From a virus (Duplodnaviria > Caudoviricetes): 64,000 nucleotides of DNA. Location of the stretch: IMG/VR virus record IMGVR_UViG_3300020048_003360, positions 128,001-192,000 of that record. One strand, given 5' to 3'. Below, piece after piece: positions 1,954 to 33,231 of the stretch (the first letter of the stretch is position 1; the number at the start of each line of letters is the position of its first letter). The notes under the pieces are model-generated. The model saw only the letters and a program-made list of their open reading frames with translations, searched no databases and had not been told where the DNA came from. The position numbers were made by a program, and so were the translations under genes.

Positions 1954-4900
1954 ATCATCCATATCACTACCTGGTGCATTTAGTGCTGACGTACTCAATA
2001 GAGCAGTGGCACCACTTTCACCTACTGTATATCCCTTAGTCATACCTCTCAAATTAGTAAACTGTGGATCAGCACTGGTAAATGTATTTATAGCTACATC
2101 ACTACTATCTACAGTGGCCTCAGAAATAGTACCCATGTCATTTTTATGGTAGAGTCTAGTGCGTTTTGTCATACTGCGACTATTACGACCACCAGTACCA
2201 CTATAGGTAACAGCTTCAGTTTCTTTTAGATTCTGAATTGGATTAATATCATTTACAGTTACTACTGCCGGATCCTGACGTAGAGACATCCAAACTGCAT
2301 ACGGATTTAACTCAATTTGCTTATTACCCTTACCTGGTTTGGCATTATGCGCTCTAATTGCTTTAACCATTTCTGTATAGACTACACCAGCTACTCTTTC
2401 ATATCCTTTAATACGCATATGGCTGGGATCTAATTCATCTGGATGTTCTTCCGTTAACAGTAGTTCACAACTACGGATTAATAATCCATGGAATGTAGTG
2501 GGTTCTTTCATTTCCCGCAATAGTTCTTTAGTAATTGGATCAATAAACATCTGATACATCAGGTCTATTTCACGCAAATACTTAGTACTAGCACCATCTG
2601 TTTCTAATACATTCAAATAGACACTGGGTTTATCAAAGTCATATACACCATAGTCAATAATTGCTTTATGGTATTCATTGAATCCAGCCAGTATAATTGA
2701 TGCCTTCCTATCGTCTTTAGAAAATACTAGAGTCTCATCACTGAATACTAAAGAATATTCGTGTGATTCTAAATTCACTCTAGTGCCGGTATTCACACGT
2801 CTAGGCACCACACCCAGCAGCTTAATTAACCTACTCAAACCTAACTCATATCCTAAGATAATTCCAATCGGAATCTCTCTACCCATTACCTTAAGTTCAG
2901 CATGATCTACAGGTGCCTTCTTAGCATCTAGACCTAATAGATCTTCAATAGAGCAGAGATCTACCAAATCACCATTATTGCCAGTATATAATGCACCATC
3001 TGAATCCATTACTAAATAAATGTTAGTACCTAATGGACCAATGCCTTTTGTACTAGTAGTGGTATTTAAACCGACTATAATAGCACCATCTTTTTCATAT
3101 GCTTCAATGGCTTCTTTACCATATAGATCTAGACGTTCAGTATGGTCAAAATTAAGAACATATGTAGTTTCTTTACCAGTAATACCACTGTTAGCAGTAA
3201 AGCCCCTAAAGTTTTGAGCCAGTGAATTATACACTCTAGGTGCAGTAAATTGATTATCAAATACATTACCAGTATAGAGTTTAGTAATTGTTAGATTTGT
3301 ATTATCTAAACCCAATACAGTAATATTATTTTTTAACCATTGACAATAGTCATTTACTTTCTTATCACTCCTACTAATAAATGTTTTAGAGTAATAACTA
3401 GTAAGAGCTACGGTATCTGGAGATACCTTTCGTATAGGAAGGTCACCACGTTGCCTTCGTAACTTATACTTAACTCCATTAGACGTGTAAGTGCCGTCAC
3501 TACCAATTACCGGTAACTTATACCTCATTATAGAAGGCATACCTTCTACTGGTTTTACTTTGACAGTATAAAGTTCATAATCGCCCATTACGTCTTCTAC
3601 TACTTCTTTATCATATCCAGTTAATATAACTCCAGCATTCTGAATACTCACTACCATACCAGCAATATCTTTTTCTAATACATTAGAAATGTATTTTTTA
3701 TCAAAGTCATGTAAACTACTCTTTAGCATGCTCTTATCGATAACTGTAGGTATGTCTTTAAAACTATGTGATGATTCTATTTTTAAAGACTCTGGATTTA
3801 CATCAATAAACTTATCTAGAGTTTCCTTTCCATTTGGAGCTACAATACTACGATATGTTTTAGATAGTTCATTGAGTTTTTTATACTCACTAGCTGACAT
3901 CATCCCCATATCTGCCAGTCTATCACATACTCGTAATACACCATCTTCTAGTGTAGGCGCATCTCCTACTATTACTATATCTTCTATTTTATCTCCATCA
4001 TCATTCATGTCACCGTGGTGATTTATAGAGATAGTTTCTAACTCAGATAATTCAGCTTCTATTTCCTTATCTAACTCATCATCAGCAGTAATAGTTTCGT
4101 CTACATCTACTTCAGTTGTATAATCTATTTCCTCACTGCTATCGTCAGTAATCTCCTGACCACTACTTTGAGCAATTATTGCCTTATCTATATCCTTAGC
4201 TATAGTAGTACTATTATTTACTTCTGGTATAGTTACATCTTGTTTTATTACAGTAGTTTTAATAGTATCTATCTTAGATTTCTTAGCTAACTTAGCTGCA
4301 GCTGTTCTCACCTGGAATAGAGCCATCATAAGACGCAGGAAACGCATCTGTAGTTGCTTTGGATCAATACCCTTAGTGTTGGCATCGGGATTGAGTTCTA
4401 GCTCTTCCTTAGTGGCTACACGCCATCTATTTAGCCTACCTAAGTTTACTACAAAAAACTTACCTGACTCTTGAAAAATAATATTTACTTTATCTAATTT
4501 ATCATCTGGTACATTTGCTAATGCAGATTCTTTTCTATCCGGACCTACCCACTTCCACAACTCTAATAGACTTAGACTTTCAGGACTATTAAAGATCTTT
4601 ATGGTTTTTTGAGTAATGCCTTTACTGGCTAATCTTAAGTCAGCAATACTGGGTAAAATATTTGGTAGATTATACAAAATAAACTGATTTCTGTCAACTT
4701 GACCCGCTACTTCGGCTATTTTCTTCCATACAGCAGTTTCAGTATTCCACCATTTATAGTAAGCAGTATAATAAGACCGTAAATATCTATAAAGTCTAGG
4801 AATTACTCCATAATTAAATATAACCAGAGTATTAGCATCTTTACACGCATTAGTTAATTCTCGCATAATCCGAAATCTACGATGCTTAATGTGGTACGTA

Positions 4901-27033: not shown

Positions 27034-27723
27034 CTATAAAGTATTTTGTAAATGAGCACTCTGTAATAGTACTTTCAATGTCTGAGTACTCTCTACACCA
27101 CCAGCTAGATGTTCCACACCACTAATACTAAAACCACCAGTATGTGATATGTGTTGATTGGACGCATTAAAAGCCTTTGAGTCACCACCTCTAATTTTCA
27201 TTAGTTCAGTTAGAGTATCTTCTAAATTCAATGATGCCAAAATTTGTACTTCAGGATAAGATATTTTACTACCTTTTGATTTTCCTGTAGGTTGACCAGT
27301 CATATCGTCTACTGACTTATTATCTTCTGGAATAGATATCTTCTTAACTAATAATTGAGCTTGTCTACGTAATGGTAGATCTACAATTAAGTATGGTATT
27401 GGTGTTAAGTACGCTGGACTATCACTATCAGAATCTTTCATCCAGATACGTTCAAAGAAGTTATGTCCTAATTCTTTAGCTAATTCTAAATTTCTCTCTA
27501 CAGATAATTTATCTTCACTTAAATTAGGTGCTATTAATGCTAATTTAATATCACCATTCTTTAGAGACAACATAAAATCATTAAACTGTTTGTCAGACAT
27601 ACTGGCAAATAAAGTTTTATATATTTCTTGATTAGCTGTAGTTTTATTTTCTGAATTTGGTAATAATGCACCTATATACTTCAATATATAGGCTTCAGTT
27701 ATTTTTCTCTTATCGTTAGCCAT
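27034..27723 (-). CDS. Virion RNA polymerase beta subunit C-terminal part (phiKZ gp149-like)
   Basis: RRQAQLLVKK..DMTGQPTGKSKGSKISYPEVQIL..LTELMKIRGGD aligns with the beta C-terminal TQQP..G..R.GEME..L.E..TvKsDD pattern. Confidence 0.8.
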   Translation of the reverse strand: MANDKRKITEAYILKYIGALLPNSENKTTANQEIYKTLFASMSDKQFNDFMLSLKNGDIKLALIAPNLSEDKLSVERNLELAKELGHNFFERIWMKDSDSDSPAYLTPIPYLIVDLPLRRQAQLLVKKISIPEDNKSVDDMTGQPTGKSKGSKISYPEVQILASLNLEDTLTELMKIRGGDSKAFNASNQHISHTGGFSISGVEHLAGGVESTQTLKVLLQSAHLQNTL

Positions 27724-27776
27724 ATCTATTCCTTTTTAAATATACCTATACTGAGCTGACCCACCCTCATCCATTA

Positions 27777-28016
27777 TTACTCTGGATTCACTTTAGTAAA
27801 AATACGTCCTTTTTTACCTTCATTAGAAGTTATTAATTTCCACTGTCTCATTTTTGCAGTTTGTGTATTAACTTTAGTAATAGATATTTTCCATACTTCA
27901 GCTGCTTGAGTAGGTGTAAATTGATCAGGAAGTAAAGACAGACGATATTGTCGTATAGCATCAGCATCTTTAAATGACTTAAGGTTACATTTAGCATAAT
28001 GGGCCTTTATTGTCAT
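27777..28016 (-). CDS. Small basic, possibly winged-HTH protein
   Basis: TPTQAAEVWKISITKVNTQTAKMRQWKLI pattern. Confidence 0.55.
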   Translation of the reverse strand: MTIKAHYAKCNLKSFKDADAIRQYRLSLLPDQFTPTQAAEVWKISITKVNTQTAKMRQWKLITSNEGKKGRIFTKVNPE

Positions 28017-28025
28017 AATTTTATC

Positions 28026-28205
28026 CTACTGCAAGATAGTAACTTGATTCATCGCATACGCATTATCTACATCTCTATCATCAACCTTTTCTATTACTAT
28101 TAAATTAGGTGTATTTGTACCCAATATATTAGTGAGCATTGCTGGTAATAGTTTTTTCAAATGACAGTAATAATGATTACCATCCTGTAGTTTAATAATA
28201 CGCAT
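28026..28205 (-). CDS. Small hypothetical protein (59 aa)
   Basis: Manually found ORF MRIIKLQDGNHYY... with AAGGA SD. Confidence 0.5.
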   Translation of the reverse strand: MRIIKLQDGNHYYCHLKKLLPAMLTNILGTNTPNLIVIEKVDDRDVDNAYAMNQVTILQ

Positions 28206-28247
28206 AATTTATTCCTTACTTATTAAATAAATAAAAAAAAAATAAAT

Positions 28248-28283
28248 TACCCTATCAGTCATATTATTTTGACTGATAGGGTA
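28248..28283 (-). terminator. Terminator ending the tRNA/ncRNA island
   Basis: TACCCTATCAGTC/GACTGATAGGGTA stem followed by a U tract on the minus strand. Confidence 0.75.
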
Positions 28284-28611
28284 GTTAAGTAATGGGTGGG
28301 GTGTGATACGTTAGATTTTAATCATACCATAGCGACCGCATCAAAAGTTTCCAAAGCTTTATTGGAAGAACACCCCATTGATAATTTACATCCCATAGAA
28401 CACTACACAAAATATATTGCATAATGCTCTACAGGTTGCACACTAGTAGTTATGGGAGTACTAACGCCATAAAACTAATGACAGCTTGCAGTTATATTAA
28501 GAATCACTTAATATAACTACCGTACGGTTATGAAGAGTGATTAGTTCTTCTACATTCACCGTAAGTTAATCCTCACATTATCCCATAAAGTACGTATGGA
28601 ATGTTTGGAAT

Positions 28612-28644
28612 TGGTGGGCCCGCCCGGACTCGAACCGGGGACCA
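28612..28644 (-). pseudogene. Orphan 3' half of a tRNA (T arm + acceptor strand + CCA)
   Basis: TGGTC CCCGG TTCGAGT CCGGG CGGGCCC A CCA; no D or anticodon arm upstream. Confidence 0.75.
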
Positions 28645-28650
28645 AATTAT

Positions 28651-28818
28651 TTAAATTTCTACGTCAGCTCTTACAAGTGGTCTATTCATAAATTGTTCTG
28701 CAACTAATCTATGTTCATAAACATAACCTTCCATTGCTCCAGATCTTACAGCTTCTGGATGTTCAGGATTATAAACCATTCTATATTCATTAACAATACG
28801 TAATTCTTTTTTAGCCAT
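28651..28818 (-). pseudogene. Truncated HNH-endonuclease-like ORF
   Basis: YRMVYNPEHP...GYVYEHRLVAEQFMNRPL stops before the HH.D/N catalytic part; start refined to MAKKE. Confidence 0.65.
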
Positions 28819-28840
28819 TTTTATAATCCTGTTAAGTGTT

Positions 28841-28916
28841 TGGTGGGACCGGAAGGAGTTGAACCTTACATTCTTGGCTTTATGAGAACCCTGCTTCACC
28901 GTTAAGCTACAGTCCC
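28841..28916 (-). tRNA. tRNA with CAU anticodon (Met or Ile2)
   Basis: GGGACTG acceptor, loop CTCATAA, TTCAACT T loop, CCA end. Confidence 0.85.
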
Positions 28917-28942
28917 AATTTACTACATTTAACTTCTCAAAA

Positions 28943-29460
28943 ATTGTGCTCCTTAAGATATTTCTATCTATACTGTCATTCTAAATCAAGAGCATTATTT
29001 AGAATCTAGACTATGTTATCACCATATATTTGGTAGCTCTTACTCACCACACAGGTGGCTTGCTCAAATACTTAGGTATTCCGTTTCTAGTCTCTACACC
29101 TTCCTGTTATTCCTTAACGACTGTACCACTTCGATCCGTGGCCTTGGTAGGAATACTACGAGTTCAGGCTGGCTCGGCGCTGGCATATTAATAACTACCT
29201 TAGAACAGTCTTACTGCCGATGATTTTTCTTCGGAAAACCATGAAACCATCATCTGCTTCAGATACTTATTAACTTAGCTTTTGCCGAATTTACGGAAAT
29301 ACTACTAGCGGGTTTCCCTTGATACGTTACGCCTTTTCGCGTTCGTCTTACTATACCTGATTCCATTAAGGACTCACAAACATTTCTGCTTGCTCTTCGG
29401 CGATTATCCTATCCAGGTTATCGAAAACTGACTACCATATCATTTTTCGCTAGTGACCTA
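28943..29460 (-). ncRNA. Orphan group-I-intron-like RNA A
   Basis: Shares GGTCACTAGCGAAAAATG, CGCTAGTAGTATTTCCGTAAATTCGGC, GAAGGTGTAGAGACTAG..ACGGAAT and ATAGTC with the tRNA-Leu intron, but has no tRNA exons. Confidence 0.8.
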
Positions 29461-29476
29461 TTACGACACTTTATTC

Positions 29477-29743
29477 TCACACTATATTAAACCTACCATC
29501 AAACAATAGGTTTTCATTTTGTAATCTGATGTCTCCAGAGACGTTCAAATAGTAGGCATCCTTAACCACGGAGCCGTCTTCTAGATAAACATTTATCCTT
29601 AAGACATGATTCCCAAGCGTTTCCTTTATGTCCAGAAACACTCTATCCTTTACAGTAACTCTGGTAGTTACTTTAAGGTCTTCACTTTCTCCAATAGTGA
29701 AGTCATTACCAATAAAATACCTAATCATTTGCACCTCCATCAA
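29477..29743 (-). CDS. Hypothetical 88-aa protein between the two orphan ribozyme-like RNAs
   Basis: ORF with GAGGAG/GGAGG SD-like motifs. Confidence 0.65.
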   Translation of the reverse strand: MMEVQMIRYFIGNDFTIGESEDLKVTTRVTVKDRVFLDIKETLGNHVLRINVYLEDGSVVKDAYYLNVSGDIRLQNENLLFDGRFNIV

Positions 29744-29760
29744 TTAACTCCTCATTAAAG

Positions 29761-30320
29761 ATTGTGCACCTTAGAATGTTTCCATCCATTTAGTCATTTA
29801 TGGTCAAGTGTATTACCATAAATCTAGACTATTATGCTCCTTCATTAACTGTGGTTCATATTAGAGCTTCTGACAGCCATATGGTATTTTAGGTACATCA
29901 GAATTTAAGTACCACAACTACTAATCTACTAGACAACTAACTTAGGATTCCGTTTTTATAATCACACCTTCCTGTCGTGTCTTTGGAGGTACTTCTATCC
30001 TCAGTACTTTATGGGGTCTTAGTCCCACTACAGGCTTGGCTCAGTATCAACATATTCTTTAAAATAGGCTCTTCATTACATTCGGGCAACCCTGCTAGAA
30101 CTAACCGAATGAATTCTATTTACTCAAACCCGTGGCAGGATTTAACTTCGATTTGAGTACCGTCTCTTAAAGAACTTAGTTTTTACTGATTTTACGGAAA
30201 CTGATATCTTTGATTAGATCATTGTGTCATTTAGAATGGTAGGTAAAGGAATTAAGTTTTTACACTACCTTTTTAACCTATTTTATCCATAGCCACGACT
30301 ACAGTGCTAATCTAAAGTAA
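29761..30320 (-). ncRNA. Orphan group-I-intron-like RNA B (divergent P7)
   Basis: GTTTCCGTAAAATC (P3/P), TACTGAGCCAAGCC (Q), CAGGAAGGTGTGATTATAAAAACGGAAT (R), ATAATAGTCTAG (S); 3' tail homologous to RNA A. Confidence 0.7.
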
Positions 30321-30505
30321 CCAGTGCGGTACTATGCTAGGTGCATAATTGTATAACTCTGCCTAGCGCAAAGCGTGTGTCCTTTACTACTAAAGTTCAC
30401 GGGAGTAAATGAAGCTATGGACTTCATTCAGGGATTTTTCTTCTGATTATGCTCATTGCCGAAGATCCACCCGTCGCACGGTCGTATACCCATGTCCATA
30501 GCATG

Positions 30506-30661
30506 GGTTCCCTACTTGCTGAAAATCTTTCTACACGAGTAATCTATCACTCGCTTATCGTTTATCATGTAAGACAGTCCCACATAATTACATCCTGATT
30601 CGGTTTCTATCTTGGAGTAAATAACTTCTCCAGATATAAGGAAAATAATGAGTAGATACAT
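30506..30661 (-). CDS. Small hypothetical protein (51 aa)
   Basis: MYLLIIFLISGEVIYSK... with TAAGGAG SD; manually found. Confidence 0.55.
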
Positions 30662-30678
30662 TTATCTCCTTACTTAAA

Positions 30679-30728
30679 TGGCCTCCCGTAGTGGACTCGA
30701 ACCACTGACCCCAATCTTAGAAGGATTG
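30679..30728 (-). pseudogene. Partial tRNA-Arg(UCU): anticodon arm, T arm, acceptor 3' strand
   Basis: CAATC CTTCTAA GATTG GGGTC AGTGG TTCGAGT CCACT ACGGGAG G CCA; no D arm or dedicated 5' strand. Confidence 0.7.
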
Positions 30729-30734
30729 TTTAAT

Positions 30735-30816
30735 TGGCGGGACAGGTGCGACTCGAACGCACATACTCCAATTACGCGGTTAACGACGGCTTAGAAGGCC
30801 GTTGCGATACTGCCCC
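30735..30816 (-). tRNA. Atypical D-armless tRNA-like RNA, UCU anticodon, long variable region
   Basis: GGGGCAG-TATCGCA-ACGGC CTTCTAA GCCGT-23 nt-GTGCG TTCGAGT CGCAC-CTGTCCC G CCA. Confidence 0.7.
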
Positions 30817-30826
30817 AATTATACTC

Positions 30827-31078
30827 TTACCTAGCAGACGCCATACCCATGGTGGCTCTATGGATAGGTACTACATTGTCGCCGCTCTTCCTCGCCAACT
30901 CTCCATAGCAATCAGCTCTGAGCAACTCTTTCAGTCGCTCAATTGTGTCCTTATCGGAAGTTACGACCAAGTGCAAAGAAGCTGTATCATCGATGTTAGA
31001 GTCAATTACAGCTAACTGCACTGTTTCTTGCTTCGTTGAGTGTGTGGGCGCAAACATCCGTGTAAACCAGTTAAACAT
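30827..31078 (-). CDS. Hypothetical protein
   Basis: 83-aa ORF with AGGA SD between tRNA genes. Confidence 0.65.
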   Translation of the reverse strand: MFNWFTRMFAPTHSTKQETVQLAVIDSNIDDTASLHLVVTSDKDTIERLKELLRADCYGELARKSGDNVVPIHRATMGMASAR

Positions 31079-31114
31079 TTTATTCGTCCTATTATTTAGT
31101 TGATCGATGTCTTA

Positions 31115-31387
31115 CTACTGAGTACTCTCTACAGATTCACTACTAACTTCCTTTGCTGAGATCATCCATTCAAGAAAGCTATGATACACACTCATTGCTT
31201 CATTTTCATCAACCGGCACTCTAATTCCTCTCACATAGAAGCCATCTTCAGCAATTCTAAGGACAGGTTCACCAGTTTTAGCATGGTGAAAGATTACAGA
31301 ATTAGGATATAACTCTGCAGCAGTCATAGCCACTTCTGAATGAACTTCGTTAATTGCCACTGCATCCACATTTTCTTCCATGATCAT
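31115..31387 (-). CDS. Hypothetical protein
   Basis: Start refined (MIMEENV) because the longer ORF overlaps tRNA-Thr; VLRIAEDGFYVRG motif. Confidence 0.65.
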   Translation of the reverse strand: MIMEENVDAVAINEVHSEVAMTAAELYPNSVIFHHAKTGEPVLRIAEDGFYVRGIRVPVDENEAMSVYHSFLEWMISAKEVSSESVESTQ

Positions 31388-31401
31388 TCCTTTAAATAAG
31401 A

Positions 31402-31476
31402 TGGTGCCCAAGGTGGAAGTCGAACACCAGATCCCCGCATTACAAGTGCGGTGCATTACCATTCTGCTACAAGGGC
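31402..31476 (-). tRNA. tRNA-Thr(UGU)
   Basis: GCCCTTG acceptor, CCGCA CTTGTAA TGCGG anticodon arm, CCA end. Confidence 0.85.
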
Positions 31477-31489
31477 TATTTATTAAATA

Positions 31490-31792
31490 TTAATTTGATT
31501 GACCAATTGCCATATCGACAATATCTTTCAATGTAATATTATCTTTATACATTCCGTATTCATACTCCTCTAATGGAAAATGAATTAAACTAAACGCCTT
31601 ACTTAGCTTTTCAGGATCTGAAATAACAACAGTTTCTTCTAGCTTAACTTGAGTTTCAATATTAACAGATTCCAAATGAATCTTATTAGTACCAATTATT
31701 TCAACATTTGTTTCAAAAATCTTTTTCATTTCATTTCCTAAATAACCTTTATTCCATAAGGATTTAAAAAGCTCTTGTAATTCCAAGATCAT
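31490..31792 (-). CDS. Hypothetical protein
   Basis: 100-aa ORF with AAGGAG SD. Confidence 0.65.
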   Translation of the reverse strand: MILELQELFKSLWNKGYLGNEMKKIFETNVEIIGTNKIHLESVNIETQVKLEETVVISDPEKLSKAFSLIHFPLEEYEYGMYKDNITLKDIVDMAIGQSN

Positions 31793-31809
31793 TTTGTTCT
31801 CCTTATGGA

Positions 31810-31842
31810 AATCCGGCGCTCTACCAACTGAGCTATTGAGGA
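31810..31842 (-). pseudogene. Orphan 5' half of a tRNA
   Basis: TCCTCAA TA GCTC AGTTGGTA GAGC G CCGGA TT, then directly the SD of the next ORF; no matching 3' half nearby. Confidence 0.7.
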
Positions 31843-31852
31843 TTATTGTAAC

Positions 31853-32381
31853 TGGTGGGGGTAATCGGAGTCGAACCGATATACCTTGCGGTGAGGGATT
31901 TTACTTACCACTTCGGTTTTCACCGCCAGTCTTAGCCCTTGCGGGTTATCTTCTGTTCGTGGTCTGGACTATGCTATCGCCATATTACGATTTATCACCT
32001 TGACTTGACTTTACAAGTGATAGTTTATAGTCAACCGTAACGTAGGCATTCCGTCTCTAGTCTCTACACCTTCCTAATCATTAAAGCGGAGTTCTCGCTG
32101 TCTTTCGACGGATATTTCCAACATTAACAGTTTAGGCTTGGCTCGGCGTTGGCATACACTCATTCGTATCTTTTCAGGAACCTATCGTTTCGGTATTACC
32201 AACCTGCAAAGAATTTTAACTATTGAGTGTGAAGCGTTCGCCGAATTTACGGAAATACTACTAGCGTCTTTCGATTGAGTCATTACGCCAAGACAGGAAA
32301 AGCCCGCCGAGACTACCAACTCATTTTTCGCTAGTGACCCATTAAAGAGTCCCTTGTGTCTACCAATTTCACCATACCCCC
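31853..32381 (-). tRNA. tRNA-Leu(UAA) interrupted by a group I intron
   Basis: Exons 32348-32381 and 31853-31903 join into an 85-nt cloverleaf: GGGGGTA/TACCCCC acceptor, AGGGA CT|TAAAA TCCCT, long variable arm, CCA. Confidence 0.92.
31904..32347 (-). mobile_element. Group I intron (444 nt, ORF-less) after U33 of tRNA-Leu
   Basis: Exon GACU pairs with IGS GGUC (U.G splice pair); P7 GAGACTA/TAGTCC; ends CGGT-GAAA-ACCG..GTAAG|. Confidence 0.9.
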
Positions 32382-32410
32382 TCAAATTGAAAAGTTCTAG
32401 TTACAACTAC

Positions 32411-32448
32411 ATATAGGTAATATATGTTTATAAAAAGTTTCAATCGTT
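32411..32448 (-). promoter_or_regulatory. Early promoter driving the tRNA island
   Basis: TTTTTATAAACATATATTACCTATATG; TATATTAC at 32417-32424, ~35 nt above tRNA-Leu. Confidence 0.75.
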
Positions 32449-32487
32449 GTATTTCCACACAGTATCTATATATCAAATAAAAAAACT

Positions 32488-33231
32488 CTATTGAGAATTA
32501 AGTATTGTGGCCAGTGCTCTAGCTTGATTAACTGGCGTACTACTAAAACAATCCGATAATATATTATTATTCTCACTAGCTTTGACTCGTAACTCATCCA
32601 TTAAGTCTGGATGTAAGCTAGTCCAAATAGTCCATAGCCTTAAGTATTCTTGCCATAAATCTATTTTAGTGTCTAATGGCGGTTTACCTTTACCTAACCG
32701 CCAGTTATTACTACCTGGACTATGGGCTTTAACATCACACTGGTAGTGACTCTCTAGATATCTACCATCTGGCATTATCGCATATAGCGCACTAAAACGT
32801 TTATCTCCCACACTAGAGCACTCATACCCACCTTTACGCTGATACGTTACTGTTGGATTGGTATTCTTTATTCCATATTTTATTAAATATACTGGCTTAT
32901 TTAGTTGTTTCATATAGTCCATCATGTGTTTAGTACCATTGGACTTACCATCCCAAAAAACTAATAAAGCGTCAGCAAACTTACCCATTTCGGTATTTCT
33001 AATGTATCCTGCTTTCTTACCTAAGCCAGTCCAGTTAGCTGGAAATTCATATACCTTAATATTATTTAAAAGACCATATCTGTATCCTAGTTTATCGGCA
33101 CCAGGTGCCATACCAGAAACAATAGCAGTGTCTCTATTTATTACTTTTATTATATTGTTTATTGTGTCACTTAATAATTGATAGTTAGTAAATGTTCTAG
33201 TACCAGCTACAATTAATTTATATTCATCCAT
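32488..33231 (-). CDS. SLOG (YspA/DUF2493-like) domain fused to a NADAR-like domain
   Basis: N-terminus LIVAGTR..IVSGMAPGAD..AGYIRN..FWDGKSNGT.HM; C-terminus YECSSVGDKRFSALYA..ESHYQCDVK. Confidence 0.65.
   Translation of the reverse strand: MDEYKLIVAGTRTFTNYQLLSDTINNIIKVINRDTAIVSGMAPGADKLGYRYGLLNNIKVYEFPANWTGLGKKAGYIRNTEMGKFADALLVFWDGKSNGTKHMMDYMKQLNKPVYLIKYGIKNTNPTVTYQRKGGYECSSVGDKRFSALYAIMPDGRYLESHYQCDVKAHSPGSNNWRLGKGKPPLDTKIDLWQEYLRLWTIWTSLHPDLMDELRVKASENNNILSDCFSSTPVNQARALATILNSQ

What the first reader, a model, noticed from the sequence alone, without database searches (positions are those of the whole stretch)
29761..30505. RNA B: group I scaffold with rewritten P7/G-binding site and a hairpin-rich 5' extension
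The R element reads GTGTGATTATAAAAACGG rather than GTGTAGAGACTAG, and S reads CATAATAGTC. TTAT/ATAA could re-pair, but the G-C pair of the guanosine site is gone, while P2, P3, Q and P9 remain. About 185 nt upstream form several hairpins (ACCCATG/CATGGGT, AATGAAG/CTTCATT, GCTAGG/CCTAGC). Either a decaying copy or a ribozyme scaffold repurposed for another ligand or function.
Basis: partly seen in the sequence, partly recalled or inferred. Interest (0 to 1): 0.75.

Follow-up and report, generated by a model that had tools for sequence, protein, structure and literature searches.

The report
Exon-less, core-altered group I RNA
A giant aquatic phage carries, in front of a small gene in its tRNA cluster, a 770-base RNA that descends from a self-splicing intron. 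It has kept the intron's folding scaffold, has no exons, and has a heavily altered catalytic centre, so it is either a relic caught mid-decay or an intron put to another use.

Summary
The quoted sequences are real and lie on the minus strand: R at 29967-29950 and S at 29836-29827.

RNA B (about 30511-29745) is one of three paralogues of a tRNA-type (IC3-like) group I intron in one tRNA island.
- C splits a tRNA-Leu gene.
- A and B lie in no gene and share a 92-nt 3' tail that ends in a ribosome-binding site.

What B keeps:
- P2, P2.1, P3, P4, P5, P6, P8 and P9. Against A there are 12 double compensatory pairs and 1 broken pair out of 45.
- A family model matches only its P3-P6 part (26 bits).

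What B has lost or changed:
- A catalytic-domain model scores C at 106 bits, A at 74 and B at 5.9.
- B lacks three J6/7 bases that 118 of 121 bacterial relatives conserve.
- Its J8/7 is shifted.
- It has lost the L2 GAAA loop.
- It shows no P1 with a U.G pair.

The guanosine-site G-C pair is not necessarily gone. GUGAUUA can still pair with UAGUCU in the canonical register.

A 105-nt insert in P5 is conserved in a second phage, with 7 compensatory pairs, outside any ribozyme core.

I found no homologue of B's core, no RNA data and no population variation, so decay and reuse cannot be told apart. The scan has noted exon-less phage group I ribozymes on other DNA.

The parts
29745..30511 (-). RNA B as a whole: non-coding stretch between the stop of a 49-aa ORF (30512) and the start region of the small downstream ORF
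   Evidence: No ORF above 31 aa on this strand. MFE -202.8 kcal/mol, z -3.8 against shuffles. Fold constrained to the group I helices -189.4 against -197.9 unconstrained.
30336..30511 (-). 5' extension, unique sequence with hairpins (30508-30488; 30431-30407; 30367-30336 possible)
   Evidence: Folds (z -2.0). nhmmer finds no other copy in the genome or in related loci. No equivalent in A or C.
30201..30324 (-). P2 domain: P2 CUGGU/AUCAG (30324-30320/30205-30201), P2.1 UUAGAUUA/UGAUCUAA (30315-30308/30221-30214), conserved GUAGUC, and an L2 hairpin UCAAAGA (30213-30207) that has lost the GAAA tetraloop of A and C
   Evidence: Pairs checked. Present in the local MFE. A and C have GGGAAACCC and UCGAAAGA at this place.
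29948..30199 (-). P3 (UUCCGU 30199-30194 / ACGGAA 29953-29948) enclosing the P4-P6 scaffold: P4 UCAGUA/UACUGA (30189-30184/30046-30041), P5 with 11-nt-receptor-like ACUAAG...UAUGU (30180-30175/30054-30050), P5a (30174-30167/30062-30055), GAGCCAAGCC, P6 and P6a (30040-30030/29975-29966)
   Evidence: Model R1, filters off: 26.3 bits, E 4e-9, model positions 47-145, no non-standard pair flagged. P4 has three and P5 one double compensatory change against A and C.
30058..30161 (-). Insert at the tip of P5a: a two-hairpin module of about 105 nt, also present in phage contig IMGVR_UViG_3300020048_000120 (L009 3261-3366, minus strand)
   Evidence: 77.6% identity over 107 nt. 25 predicted pairs, 7 changed on both sides, 0 broken. 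In L009 it stands without P3, P7, P8 or P9.
29950..29967 (-). R element GUGUGAUUAUAAAAACGG: J6/7 shortened by 3 nt, P7 5' strand G-u-GAUUA (29965-29959), J7/3 UAAAA
   Evidence: In 118 of 121 bacterial relatives and in all phage-type relatives seen, the spacer is AGAG+4 nt+G. Pairing options and energies.
29838..29947 (-). P8 domain: CC/GG closure, CCUAAG half-receptor, P8a UUAGUUGU/ACAGUUAA (29940-29933/29852-29845), branched tip. The 3' half reads UGAAGG instead of UAUGG.
   Evidence: local MFE reproduces the closure and P8a. A and C for comparison.
29827..29838 (-). J8/7 (AGCAUAA) and S element / P7 3' strand UAGUC (29831-29827)
   Evidence: Family J8/7 is GAAGGGA-like in bacteria and GAUAGCA in phage-type copies. 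B is shifted. UAGUCUAGAUU is identical in A and B.
29774..29823 (-). P9 hairpin AUUUAUGGU/ACCAUAAAU (29823-29815/29804-29796) with a conserved loop, then GACUA (29795-29791), which can pair with S as a rival to P7, then P9a hairpin GGAUG-GAAA-CAUUC (29787-29774)
   Evidence: Five double compensatory changes in P9 against A, with the loop 8 of 10 identical. Hairpin extension UAGUC/GACUA gives -11.5 kcal/mol against -7.1 in A.
29741..29773 (-). Shared 3' tail UAAGGUGCACAAUC...GAGGAGUUAAUUG, with Shine-Dalgarno-like motifs, running into the start region of the downstream ORF (AUG 29740 or 29728)
   Evidence: 29832-29741 is 70.7% identical to 29014-28926 behind RNA A (E 4e-11). In A the homologous stretch ends in AUG UAG just before tRNA-Met.
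29477..29740 (-). Downstream small ORF (83-87 aa), an orphan
   Evidence: Only itself among 5.8 billion proteins. No Pfam or PHROG family above threshold.

Best explanation
RNA B is a diverged, exon-less paralogue of the phage's own tRNA-type (IC3-like) group I intron.

Origin (inferred): a cassette of ribozyme, 3' tail and ribosome-binding site was duplicated in tandem inside the tRNA operon. This gave A, in front of tRNA-Met, and B, in front of a small ORF.

State of B (shown): it has kept the folding scaffold, namely P2, P3, P4-P6, P8, P9 and the L9 GAAA / P5 receptor clamp. It also carries a conserved two-hairpin module on P5. Its catalytic centre and substrate helix have been altered or lost: J6/7 is 3 nt shorter, P7 is weakened and has a local rival pairing, J8/7 is shifted, the L2 tetraloop and half of the P8 receptor are gone, and there is no P1 with a U.G pair and no exons.

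Role (inferred): B most likely no longer self-splices. It persists as a folded leader or spacer domain of the operon transcript. Its selected part is the scaffold plus the P5 module, and its likely effect is on the stability, processing or translation of the RNA downstream.
For: Paralogy with A and C:
- Shared blocks.
- Family models find C (123 and 106 bits) and A (69 and 74 bits).

Scaffold kept:
- R1 matches B's P3-P6 at 26.3 bits, E 4e-9, with no non-standard pair.
- Of 45 homologous pairs between A and B, 28 are the same, 4 changed on one side, 12 changed on both sides and 1 is broken.
- P9 has 5 double changes around a conserved loop.
- Fold z-score is -3.8.
- The group I-constrained fold is within 8.5 kcal/mol of the MFE.

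P5 module:
- 7 compensatory pairs and 0 broken against L009.

Catalytic part altered:
- R2 gives 5.9 bits, E 0.4.
- AGAG is invariant in 118 of 121 bacterial relatives plus the phage-type ones, and is absent in B.
- The P7 helix is -1.1 kcal/mol against -3.4 in the family, with a rival UAGUC/GACUA hairpin.
- Rfam RF00028 gives no match at E up to 10.

Cassette:
- A 92-nt tail is shared with A, down to the RBS and start codon.

One transcription unit is plausible:
- The only strong minus-strand terminator is at 28283-28248.
Against: - There is no evidence that B is transcribed or stable.
- No homologue of B's core exists in IMG/VR or JGI metagenomes, so conservation of the whole RNA cannot be shown.
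- The compensatory changes prove selection for the fold during the A/B divergence, not today.
- The related phage keeps only the P5 module with merged flanking helices, which looks like decay of the same lineage.
- The downstream ORF is an orphan and may not be a gene.
- A canonical P7, including G-C, the bulge and the top pair, can still be drawn, so loss of catalysis is inferred, not shown.
Confidence: 0.4

Rival explanations
1. B is a stranded intron copy in neutral decay. After tandem duplication it had no exons to join, so selection on catalysis stopped. The core junctions have already mutated and the helices will follow. It has no function.
For: - No P1 with U.G, no exons, and no ωG context like that of C.
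- Several independent lesions in the tertiary and catalytic elements: J6/7, J8/7, the L2 tetraloop and the P8 receptor.
- The catalytic-domain model fails on B.
- No homologue of the B-type core anywhere searched.
- In the related phage L009 the corresponding element has lost P3 and P7-P9 altogether.
- The ORF behind B is an orphan.
Against: - The damage is not spread at random. Only 1 of 45 homologous pairs is broken, and the long B-specific helices P5a, P8a and P9 are perfect.
- The P5 module is kept with 7 compensatory pairs in two phages.
- About 770 nt of useless DNA would be expected to be deleted from a phage genome (general expectation, not tested here).
Confidence: 0.33
2. B is still a ribozyme with a remodelled active site. 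It may cut or hydrolyse the transcript at its 3' tail to free the downstream message, much as the lariat-capping ribozyme does for its endonuclease mRNA. It may also use its pocket for another nucleotide.
For: - A canonical-register P7 remains possible: G29965.U29826, bulged U29964, G29963-C29827, then A-U, U.G, U-A, A-U.
- P3, P4-P6, P8, P9 and the L9-P5 clamp are kept.
- B sits directly in front of an RBS and start codon, as do intact exon-less relatives in other phage contigs, L010-L015.
Against: - J6/7 is reduced by 3 nt that are invariant in the family.
- J8/7 does not match either family consensus.
- P7 is weak and has a local rival pairing of similar strength.
- No substrate helix was found.
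- R2 scores 5.9 bits.
- Nothing in the data points to a ligand.
Confidence: 0.15
3. The functional unit is only the 105-nt two-hairpin module (30161-30058). The group I remnant around it is just the place where it happens to sit.
For: The module is the only part of B found in a second phage, where it sits on a plain long hairpin with no ribozyme core. It is 77.6% identical, with 7 compensatory and 0 broken pairs.
Against: - There are only two examples, from related phages.
- No Rfam family matches it.
- This reading does not explain why B's other helices are kept.
Confidence: 0.1

Closest known systems
IC3 group I introns in bacterial tRNA anticodon loops (Azoarcus tRNA-Ile, cyanobacterial tRNA-Leu; the types mapped by Williams 2020, bioRxiv 10.1101/2020.01.27.920355)
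   Same: Same helix order and the same conserved blocks: UUCCGUAAA(U/A)UC, GAGCCAAGCC, GGAAGGUGU, ACGGAAU and UAGUC. The P4-P6 domain is recognised by a model built from 25 such introns. It has a GAAA L9 loop and a P5 receptor.
   Different: - It lies in no tRNA or other gene.
- It has no P1 with a U.G pair.
- J6/7 lacks 3 invariant bases and J8/7 is shifted.
- The L2 tetraloop is lost.
- At about 770 nt it is three times the usual length, with a 176-nt 5' extension and large inserts.
- The catalytic-domain model does not recognise it.
RNA A (window 28917-29476, minus strand) and RNA C (tRNA-Leu intron, 31853-32385, minus strand) of the same phage
   Same: They are paralogues. A shares the 92-nt 3' tail, the P9 and P9a layout and the exon-less position. 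C shares the core blocks.
   Different: A and C keep the canonical R (GUGUAGAGACUAG), the GAUAGCA-type J8/7 and the L2 GAAA loop. They score 69-123 bits with the family models, against 26 bits (partial) for B.
Exon-less group I ribozymes in front of phage ORFs
   Same: Same intron family, lying in no gene and placed directly upstream of an RBS and start codon.
   Different: Those copies keep the canonical core, including a covarying P7, a plausible P1 with U.G, a ωG and a conserved 3' hairpin. B keeps none of these clearly and has a different 3' tail.
Lariat-capping ribozyme (GIR1) of twin-ribozyme introns (PMC3679873, PMC4167309)
   Same: It is the precedent for a group I-derived RNA that no longer splices and instead acts on the message of the ORF behind it.
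   Different: GIR1 is eukaryotic and lies inside another intron. It has a defined branching reaction and its own conserved core. No Rfam family, which I take to include the GIR1 branching ribozyme, matched B at E up to 10. No reaction is known for B.
c-di-GMP-controlled group I ribozyme in a Clostridioides difficile 5' UTR (as summarised in PMC3984707)
   Same: A group I RNA in a leader, where folding and processing decide the use of the ribosome-binding site.
   Different: That ribozyme is fully active and has an identified aptamer upstream. B's 5' extension matches no known aptamer, and its activity is doubtful.
GOLLD and ROOL, large phage non-coding RNAs often next to tRNA genes
   Same: Size class, phage origin and the neighbourhood of tRNA genes.
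   Different: No match to either Rfam model at E up to 10. B's ancestry is plainly group I.

Membership tests
Group I intron (tRNA-type, IC3-like) | P4-P6 scaffold domain with P3, in family order and with standard pairs | tested here: met
   R1, filters off: 26.3 bits, E 4e-9, model positions 47-145, no non-standard pair. Compensatory P4 and P5.
Group I intron (tRNA-type, IC3-like) | Catalytic domain (J6/7-P7-P3'-P8-J8/7-P7'-P9) recognisable by a family model | tested here: not met
   R2 scores C at 106 bits, A at 74 bits and B at 5.9 bits, E 0.4. RF00028 gives no match at E up to 10.
Group I intron (tRNA-type, IC3-like) | P7 with the invariant G-C pair (guanosine site), a bulge and a top pair | tested here: inconclusive
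   In the family the first pair is G-C in 108 of 110, and the top pair covaries G-C to A-U. B can form G.U, a bulged U, G-C, A-U, U.G, U-A and A-U, but the helix is weak (-1.1 against -3.4 kcal/mol). S also pairs with a downstream GACUA.
Group I intron (tRNA-type, IC3-like) | Conserved J6/7 (GUA before the P7 G; 'AGAG' block) | tested here: not met
   AGAG is present in 118 of 121 bacterial copies and in all phage-type copies. B reads GGUGU-GAUUA, 3 nt shorter.
Group I intron (tRNA-type, IC3-like) | Conserved J8/7 | tested here: not met
   The family has GAAGGGA-like or GAUAGCA. B has AGCAUAA between the P8 closure and UAGUC.
Group I intron (tRNA-type, IC3-like) | P1 with a U.G pair at a 5' splice site, formed with a guide sequence next to P2 | tested here: not met
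   C has GACU/GGUC next to P2. At that place B has AGUACCG with no complementary U-ending partner upstream. The nearby hairpin GCUAGG/CCUAGC has only Watson-Crick pairs. This check was made by eye and by local folds, not by an exhaustive search.
Group I intron (tRNA-type, IC3-like) | Terminal ωG with P9.0/P10 and flanking exons of a gene | tested here: not met
   B lies between a complete 49-aa ORF, whose homologue in L009 ends at the same place, and a separate ORF with its own RBS. It has no ACCAC/GUGGU-AAG end like that of C. A ωG cannot be assigned.
GOLLD / ROOL large phage RNAs | Match to the Rfam covariance models | tested here: not met
   No match at E up to 10 in 29300-31000 or in 27700-32600.
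Lariat-capping (GIR1) ribozyme | Match to the Rfam model and a branching core | tested here: not met
   No Rfam family of this kind matched at E up to 10. The branching reaction cannot be tested here.

The most novel reading that the evidence does not exclude
B is a domesticated group I-derived RNA, and its remodelled P7/J6/7/J8/7 pocket and added domains (the 5' extension and the P5 module) give it a new activity. That activity could be site-specific processing of the tRNA-operon transcript, or ligand- or factor-dependent control of the gene behind it. Together with RNA A and the intact leader ribozymes of other phages, it would then be part of an undescribed class of exon-less phage ribozymes.
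Probability: 0.12. Interest if true: 0.85.

Novelty: new variant of a known kind. Interest (0 to 1): 0.55.

Why it matters
A 2014 review states that all phage group I introns then known interrupt protein-coding genes, despite the many phage tRNA genes (PMC3984707). This phage has a tRNA-type intron in a tRNA gene plus two copies that interrupt nothing.

B is the copy in which the scaffold has outlived the canonical catalytic centre. If that state is selected, it is a natural example of a ribozyme fold being reused. The clearest precedents I could find are the lariat-capping ribozyme and the C. difficile allosteric intron. If it is decay, B and the further stripped-down element in a related phage together show the order in which a large ribozyme falls apart: junctions and tertiary clamps first, helices last.

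Either way the locus is easy to test in vitro.

Tried and rejected
Searches and tests that led nowhere:
- **RNA evidence.** No RNA holder was listed among public runs.
- **Population variation.** The four DNA holders, from one aquatic study, carry identical sequence with no variants.
- **B-type core elsewhere.** The exact R gave 0 hits in IMG/VR. A relaxed pattern (GCCAAGCC..GGAAGGTGTGA..ACGGAA) gave 0 hits in JGI metagenomes.
- **The A/B 3' tail elsewhere.** There were 8 pattern hits in IMG/VR, all chance matches in coding DNA.
- **The P5 module elsewhere.** Only L009 has it.
- **More relatives through neighbouring proteins.**
  - The 88-aa and 247-aa ORFs gave none.
  - The 229-aa ORF gave two loci that lack the island.
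  - The 49-aa ORF alignment gave only L009's contig.
- **Deposited phage genomes.** Only tRNA-like pieces matched the B region, and nothing matched A.
- **Rfam.** No family matched B, its 5' extension or the module.

Ideas considered and dropped:
- **A 20-nt repeat** at 30593-30574 and 28928-28909 looked like a target-site duplication. It lies in the conserved coding sequence of the 49-aa ORF and has E 0.8, so I rejected it.
- **Pairing of the 3' tail** (AGGUGCA) with the P9 loop or with UGCACCU at 30345-30339. Both can be drawn, and one A/B difference is compensatory. Similar complementarity arises in 15-61% and 29% of shuffles, so I do not count it as evidence.
- **The conserved GUAGUC in P2.1 as an alternative partner of P7.** It does not covary with P7 in L015 or L024, so I rejected it.
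- **The downstream ORF as a homing endonuclease.** It matches no family and is an orphan.
- **The 49-aa and 88-aa ORFs as exons of one gene.** The 49-aa ORF is complete, and it ends at the same place in L009.

Full report
**Setting**

The window is part of a 208-kb IMG/VR virus record that is about 78% complete. Around the finding all genes run on the minus strand. Positions 28200-32500 form a low-coding, GC-enriched island that holds tRNA genes and tRNA-like pieces. The only strong minus-strand terminator lies at its end, 28283-28248, so one long transcript is plausible but not shown.

**The observation**

On the minus strand GUGUGAUUAUAAAAACGG occupies 29967-29950 and CAUAAUAGUC occupies 29836-29827. 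The three upstream inverted repeats are present. Two of them are in the minimum-energy fold. The whole 776-nt stretch folds better than shuffles (z -3.8). The 176-nt extension alone does so only modestly (z -2.0).

**What it is related to**

A repeat scan shows three related RNAs in the island:
- A at about 28917-29476;
- B, the finding;
- C at about 31853-32385.

C is a tRNA-Leu gene with a long variable arm, split in the anticodon loop by an intron. The intron carries the blocks GCCGAGCCAAGCC, GGAAGGUGUAGAGACUAGAGACGG and GCAUAGUCC. I recognise these blocks from memory as the Azoarcus/cyanobacterial tRNA-intron type (IC3).

Rfam's group I model finds three other introns in this genome but none of A, B or C, even at E up to 10. 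I therefore collected relatives:
- 121 bacterial copies, 25 of them mapped by ARAGORN inside tRNA genes;
- a compact phage-type intron in a tRNA(CAU) (L025);
- a tRNA-Leu intron in a related phage (L009);
- five copies in viral contigs that lie in no gene but directly upstream of an RBS and ORF (L010-L015).

A model of 25 whole introns (R1) scores C at 123 bits and A at 69 bits. B is missed with the speed filters on. With filters off B scores 26.3 bits (E 4e-9), only over model positions 47-145, which cover P3, P4, P5, P6 and the start of R. No non-standard pair is flagged.

**What B has kept**

Helices were located and checked base by base.

| Helix | Pairing in B | Note |
|---|---|---|
| P2 | CUGGU/AUCAG | |
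| P2.1 | UUAGAUUA/UGAUCUAA | |
| P3 | UUCCGU/ACGGAA | |
| P4 | UCAGUA/UACUGA | A and C have UCGGCG/CGCCGA |
| P5 | AC/GU | carries the receptor-like ACUAAG...UAUGU |
| P5a | 8 bp | |
| P6, P6a | present | |
| P8 | CC/GG closure plus an 8-bp P8a | |
| P9 | 9 bp | |
| P9a | GAAA-capped | |

- Over 45 pairs that can be homologised between A and B, 28 are identical, 4 differ on one side, 12 differ on both sides and 1 is broken.
- In P9 five consecutive pairs are exchanged while the 10-nt loop stays 8 of 10 identical.
- A fold forced to contain all these helices costs only 8.5 kcal/mol more than the unconstrained optimum.

**What B has lost or changed**

- **Spacer between AAGGUGU and ACGG.** In 118 of 121 bacterial relatives it is AGAG plus four covarying bases plus G. 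All phage-type relatives seen also have AGAG.
- **Family P7.** It is five pairs, of which the first is G-C in 108 of 110 and the other four covary through seven helix types. A sixth pair above a one-base bulge covaries too. AGAG goes with UAGUC-C in 107 cases. The three AACG variants go with CAGUC-U or UAGUC-U.
- **B's R element.** B reads GGUGU-GAUUA-UAAAA-ACGG, which is three bases shorter before P7 and about two longer after it.
- **Two further lesions.** J8/7 is AGCAUAA instead of GAUAGCA or GAAGGGA. The L2 hairpin is UCAAAGA instead of a GAAA tetraloop.
- **P8 receptor.** Its 3' half reads UGAAGG instead of UAUGG.
- **Catalytic-domain model.** A model of the catalytic half, which includes P7, P8 and the L9 hairpin (R2), scores C at 106 bits, A at 74 bits and B at 5.9 bits, E 0.4.
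- **Substrate helix.** Next to P2, where C has the guide GGUC paired to GACU of the tRNA exon, B has AGUACCG. I found no U-ending partner for it. This was checked by eye and by local folds, not exhaustively.
- **Exons.** B has none. The 49-aa ORF upstream is complete and ends at the same place in L009. The ORF downstream has its own RBS.

**Is the guanosine site gone?**

Not necessarily. UAGUCUAGAUU is identical in A and B, so by homology UAGUC (29831-29827) is B's P7 3' strand. It can pair with GAUUA (29963-29959), keeping G29963-C29827 and turning one C-G into U.G. G29965.U29826 with U29964 bulged reproduces the family's top pair and bulge.

This helix is weak, -1.1 kcal/mol against -3.4 for GACUA/UAGUC.

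A new point: the canonical sequence GACUA occurs at 29795-29791, just after the P9 hairpin. It pairs with the same UAGUC as an extension of that hairpin (-11.5 kcal/mol for the local fold, against -7.1 in A, where only GUC/GAC can pair). Which pairing forms cannot be decided by computation.

**The P5 insert**

B's 30161-30058 is 77.6% identical to L009 3261-3366 on the minus strand. The alignment predicts two hairpins with 25 pairs, 7 of them changed on both sides and none broken. The two loops are also complementary to each other. I saw this by eye and did not test it.

In L009 the flanks still resemble B's P4, P5 and P6a. However, P4 and P5 are fused into one plain helix, and P3, R, P8, S and P9 are absent. 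The element lies upstream of the 49-aa ORF homologue, not downstream of it. The module is therefore the only part of B shown to be conserved between two phages. No further example was found.

**The cassette**

The last 92 nt of B (29832-29741) are 70.7% identical to the stretch behind A (29014-28926). In B this tail ends in GAGGAG and the start region of the small ORF. In A it ends in GAGAAG, AUG and UAG, 13 nt before tRNA-Met. The duplicated unit was therefore ribozyme plus tail plus translation start. That is the same layout as the intact exon-less ribozymes L010-L015.

The ORF behind B is an orphan with no family match.

**Weighing the explanations**

Against plain decay:
- Damage is concentrated in junctions and tertiary contacts, while helices are intact, including long B-specific ones.
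- One sub-domain is conserved across phages.

Against an active or newly evolved ribozyme:
- The family-invariant J6/7 is missing, and there is no substrate helix.
- P7 is weak and has a rival pairing.
- No homologue of the altered core exists in IMG/VR or JGI metagenomes.
- The relative in L009 looks like a further-decayed version.

There is no expression evidence and no population variation to help.

My estimates are:

| Reading | Estimate |
|---|---|
| Folded but non-splicing leader or spacer RNA whose scaffold and P5 module are what is kept | 0.40 |
| Neutral relic | 0.33 |
| Still-active ribozyme with a remodelled site | 0.15 |
| Module-only function | 0.10 |

**Literature and earlier scan notes**

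A 2014 review states that all phage group I introns then known lie in protein-coding genes. It also describes the C. difficile leader ribozyme as a domesticated intron (PMC3984707). Williams 2020 maps tRNA introns of this family in bacteria. The lariat-capping ribozyme is the known case of a group I derivative with a new reaction in front of an ORF (PMC3679873 and PMC4167309, listed).

I found no paper describing exon-less tRNA-type ribozymes in phage intergenic regions, but the search was limited.

Earlier notes of this scan describe A and C of this genome and an exon-less leader ribozyme family in other phages. I reached the same reading of A and C from my own models, and I found L010-L015 independently.

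Noticed in passing
L024 1-2255 (JGI20219J20330_108922): A metagenome contig made of four head-to-tail copies (period 663 nt) of a group I ribozyme of this family. P7 covaries (GAGCA/UGCUC). Each spacer holds GGUGACU sites complementary to the guide GGGUCAC. The fourth copy differs in P5a and P6, so this looks like a real array of exon-less ribozymes and not an assembly loop.
   Followed up: partly
L010 about 990-1560, L011 about 760-1440, L012 about 1240-1720, L014, L015: Intact-looking ribozymes of the same family in unrelated viral contigs. They lie between genes and share the 5' start AAGGUCGCUAGCG and the end GAAGUGGUAG followed by a hairpin GCAUUACUUAAUGC, then an RBS and ATG. L015 has a fully covaried P7 (GCACA/UGUGC).
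   Followed up: partly
L025 3280-3600 (Ga0316608_1000025): A tRNA(CAU) gene split after U33 by a compact intron of about 260 nt of the phage-type subfamily. It is a useful minimal reference for the family.
   Followed up: partly
L009 about 2325-2420 (minus strand), inside the tRNA-Leu intron of the related phage: The P2.1 region of that intron carries an insert of about 95 nt with tRNA-like ends (GGGAUGGCGGAACGGUAGAC ... GUUCGACUCUUACUCCCUG). Neither ARAGORN nor Rfam calls it a tRNA.
   Followed up: partly
window 30670-30735 (-): Directly after the odd tRNA-Arg(UCU)-like gene (30738-30816) lies a second piece with an identical anticodon stem-loop (CCUUCUAAG), a T arm and a 3' acceptor strand ending in CCA, but no 5' acceptor strand or D arm.
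   Followed up: no
window 29755-29744 and 28939-28928 (-): Both A and B tails contain a three-codon mini-frame in the same place: B has AUG AGG AGU UAA and A has UUG AGA AGU UAA. It overlaps the Shine-Dalgarno-like GAG(G/A)AG. This may be chance.
   Followed up: no
window 29463-29430, 29333-29277, 29105-29070 versus 32344-32311, 32289-32233, 32075-32040: The core blocks of A and C are 84-94% identical while their peripheral helices are unrelated. This suggests either strong core selection or gene conversion between the two copies. B has escaped this.
   Followed up: no
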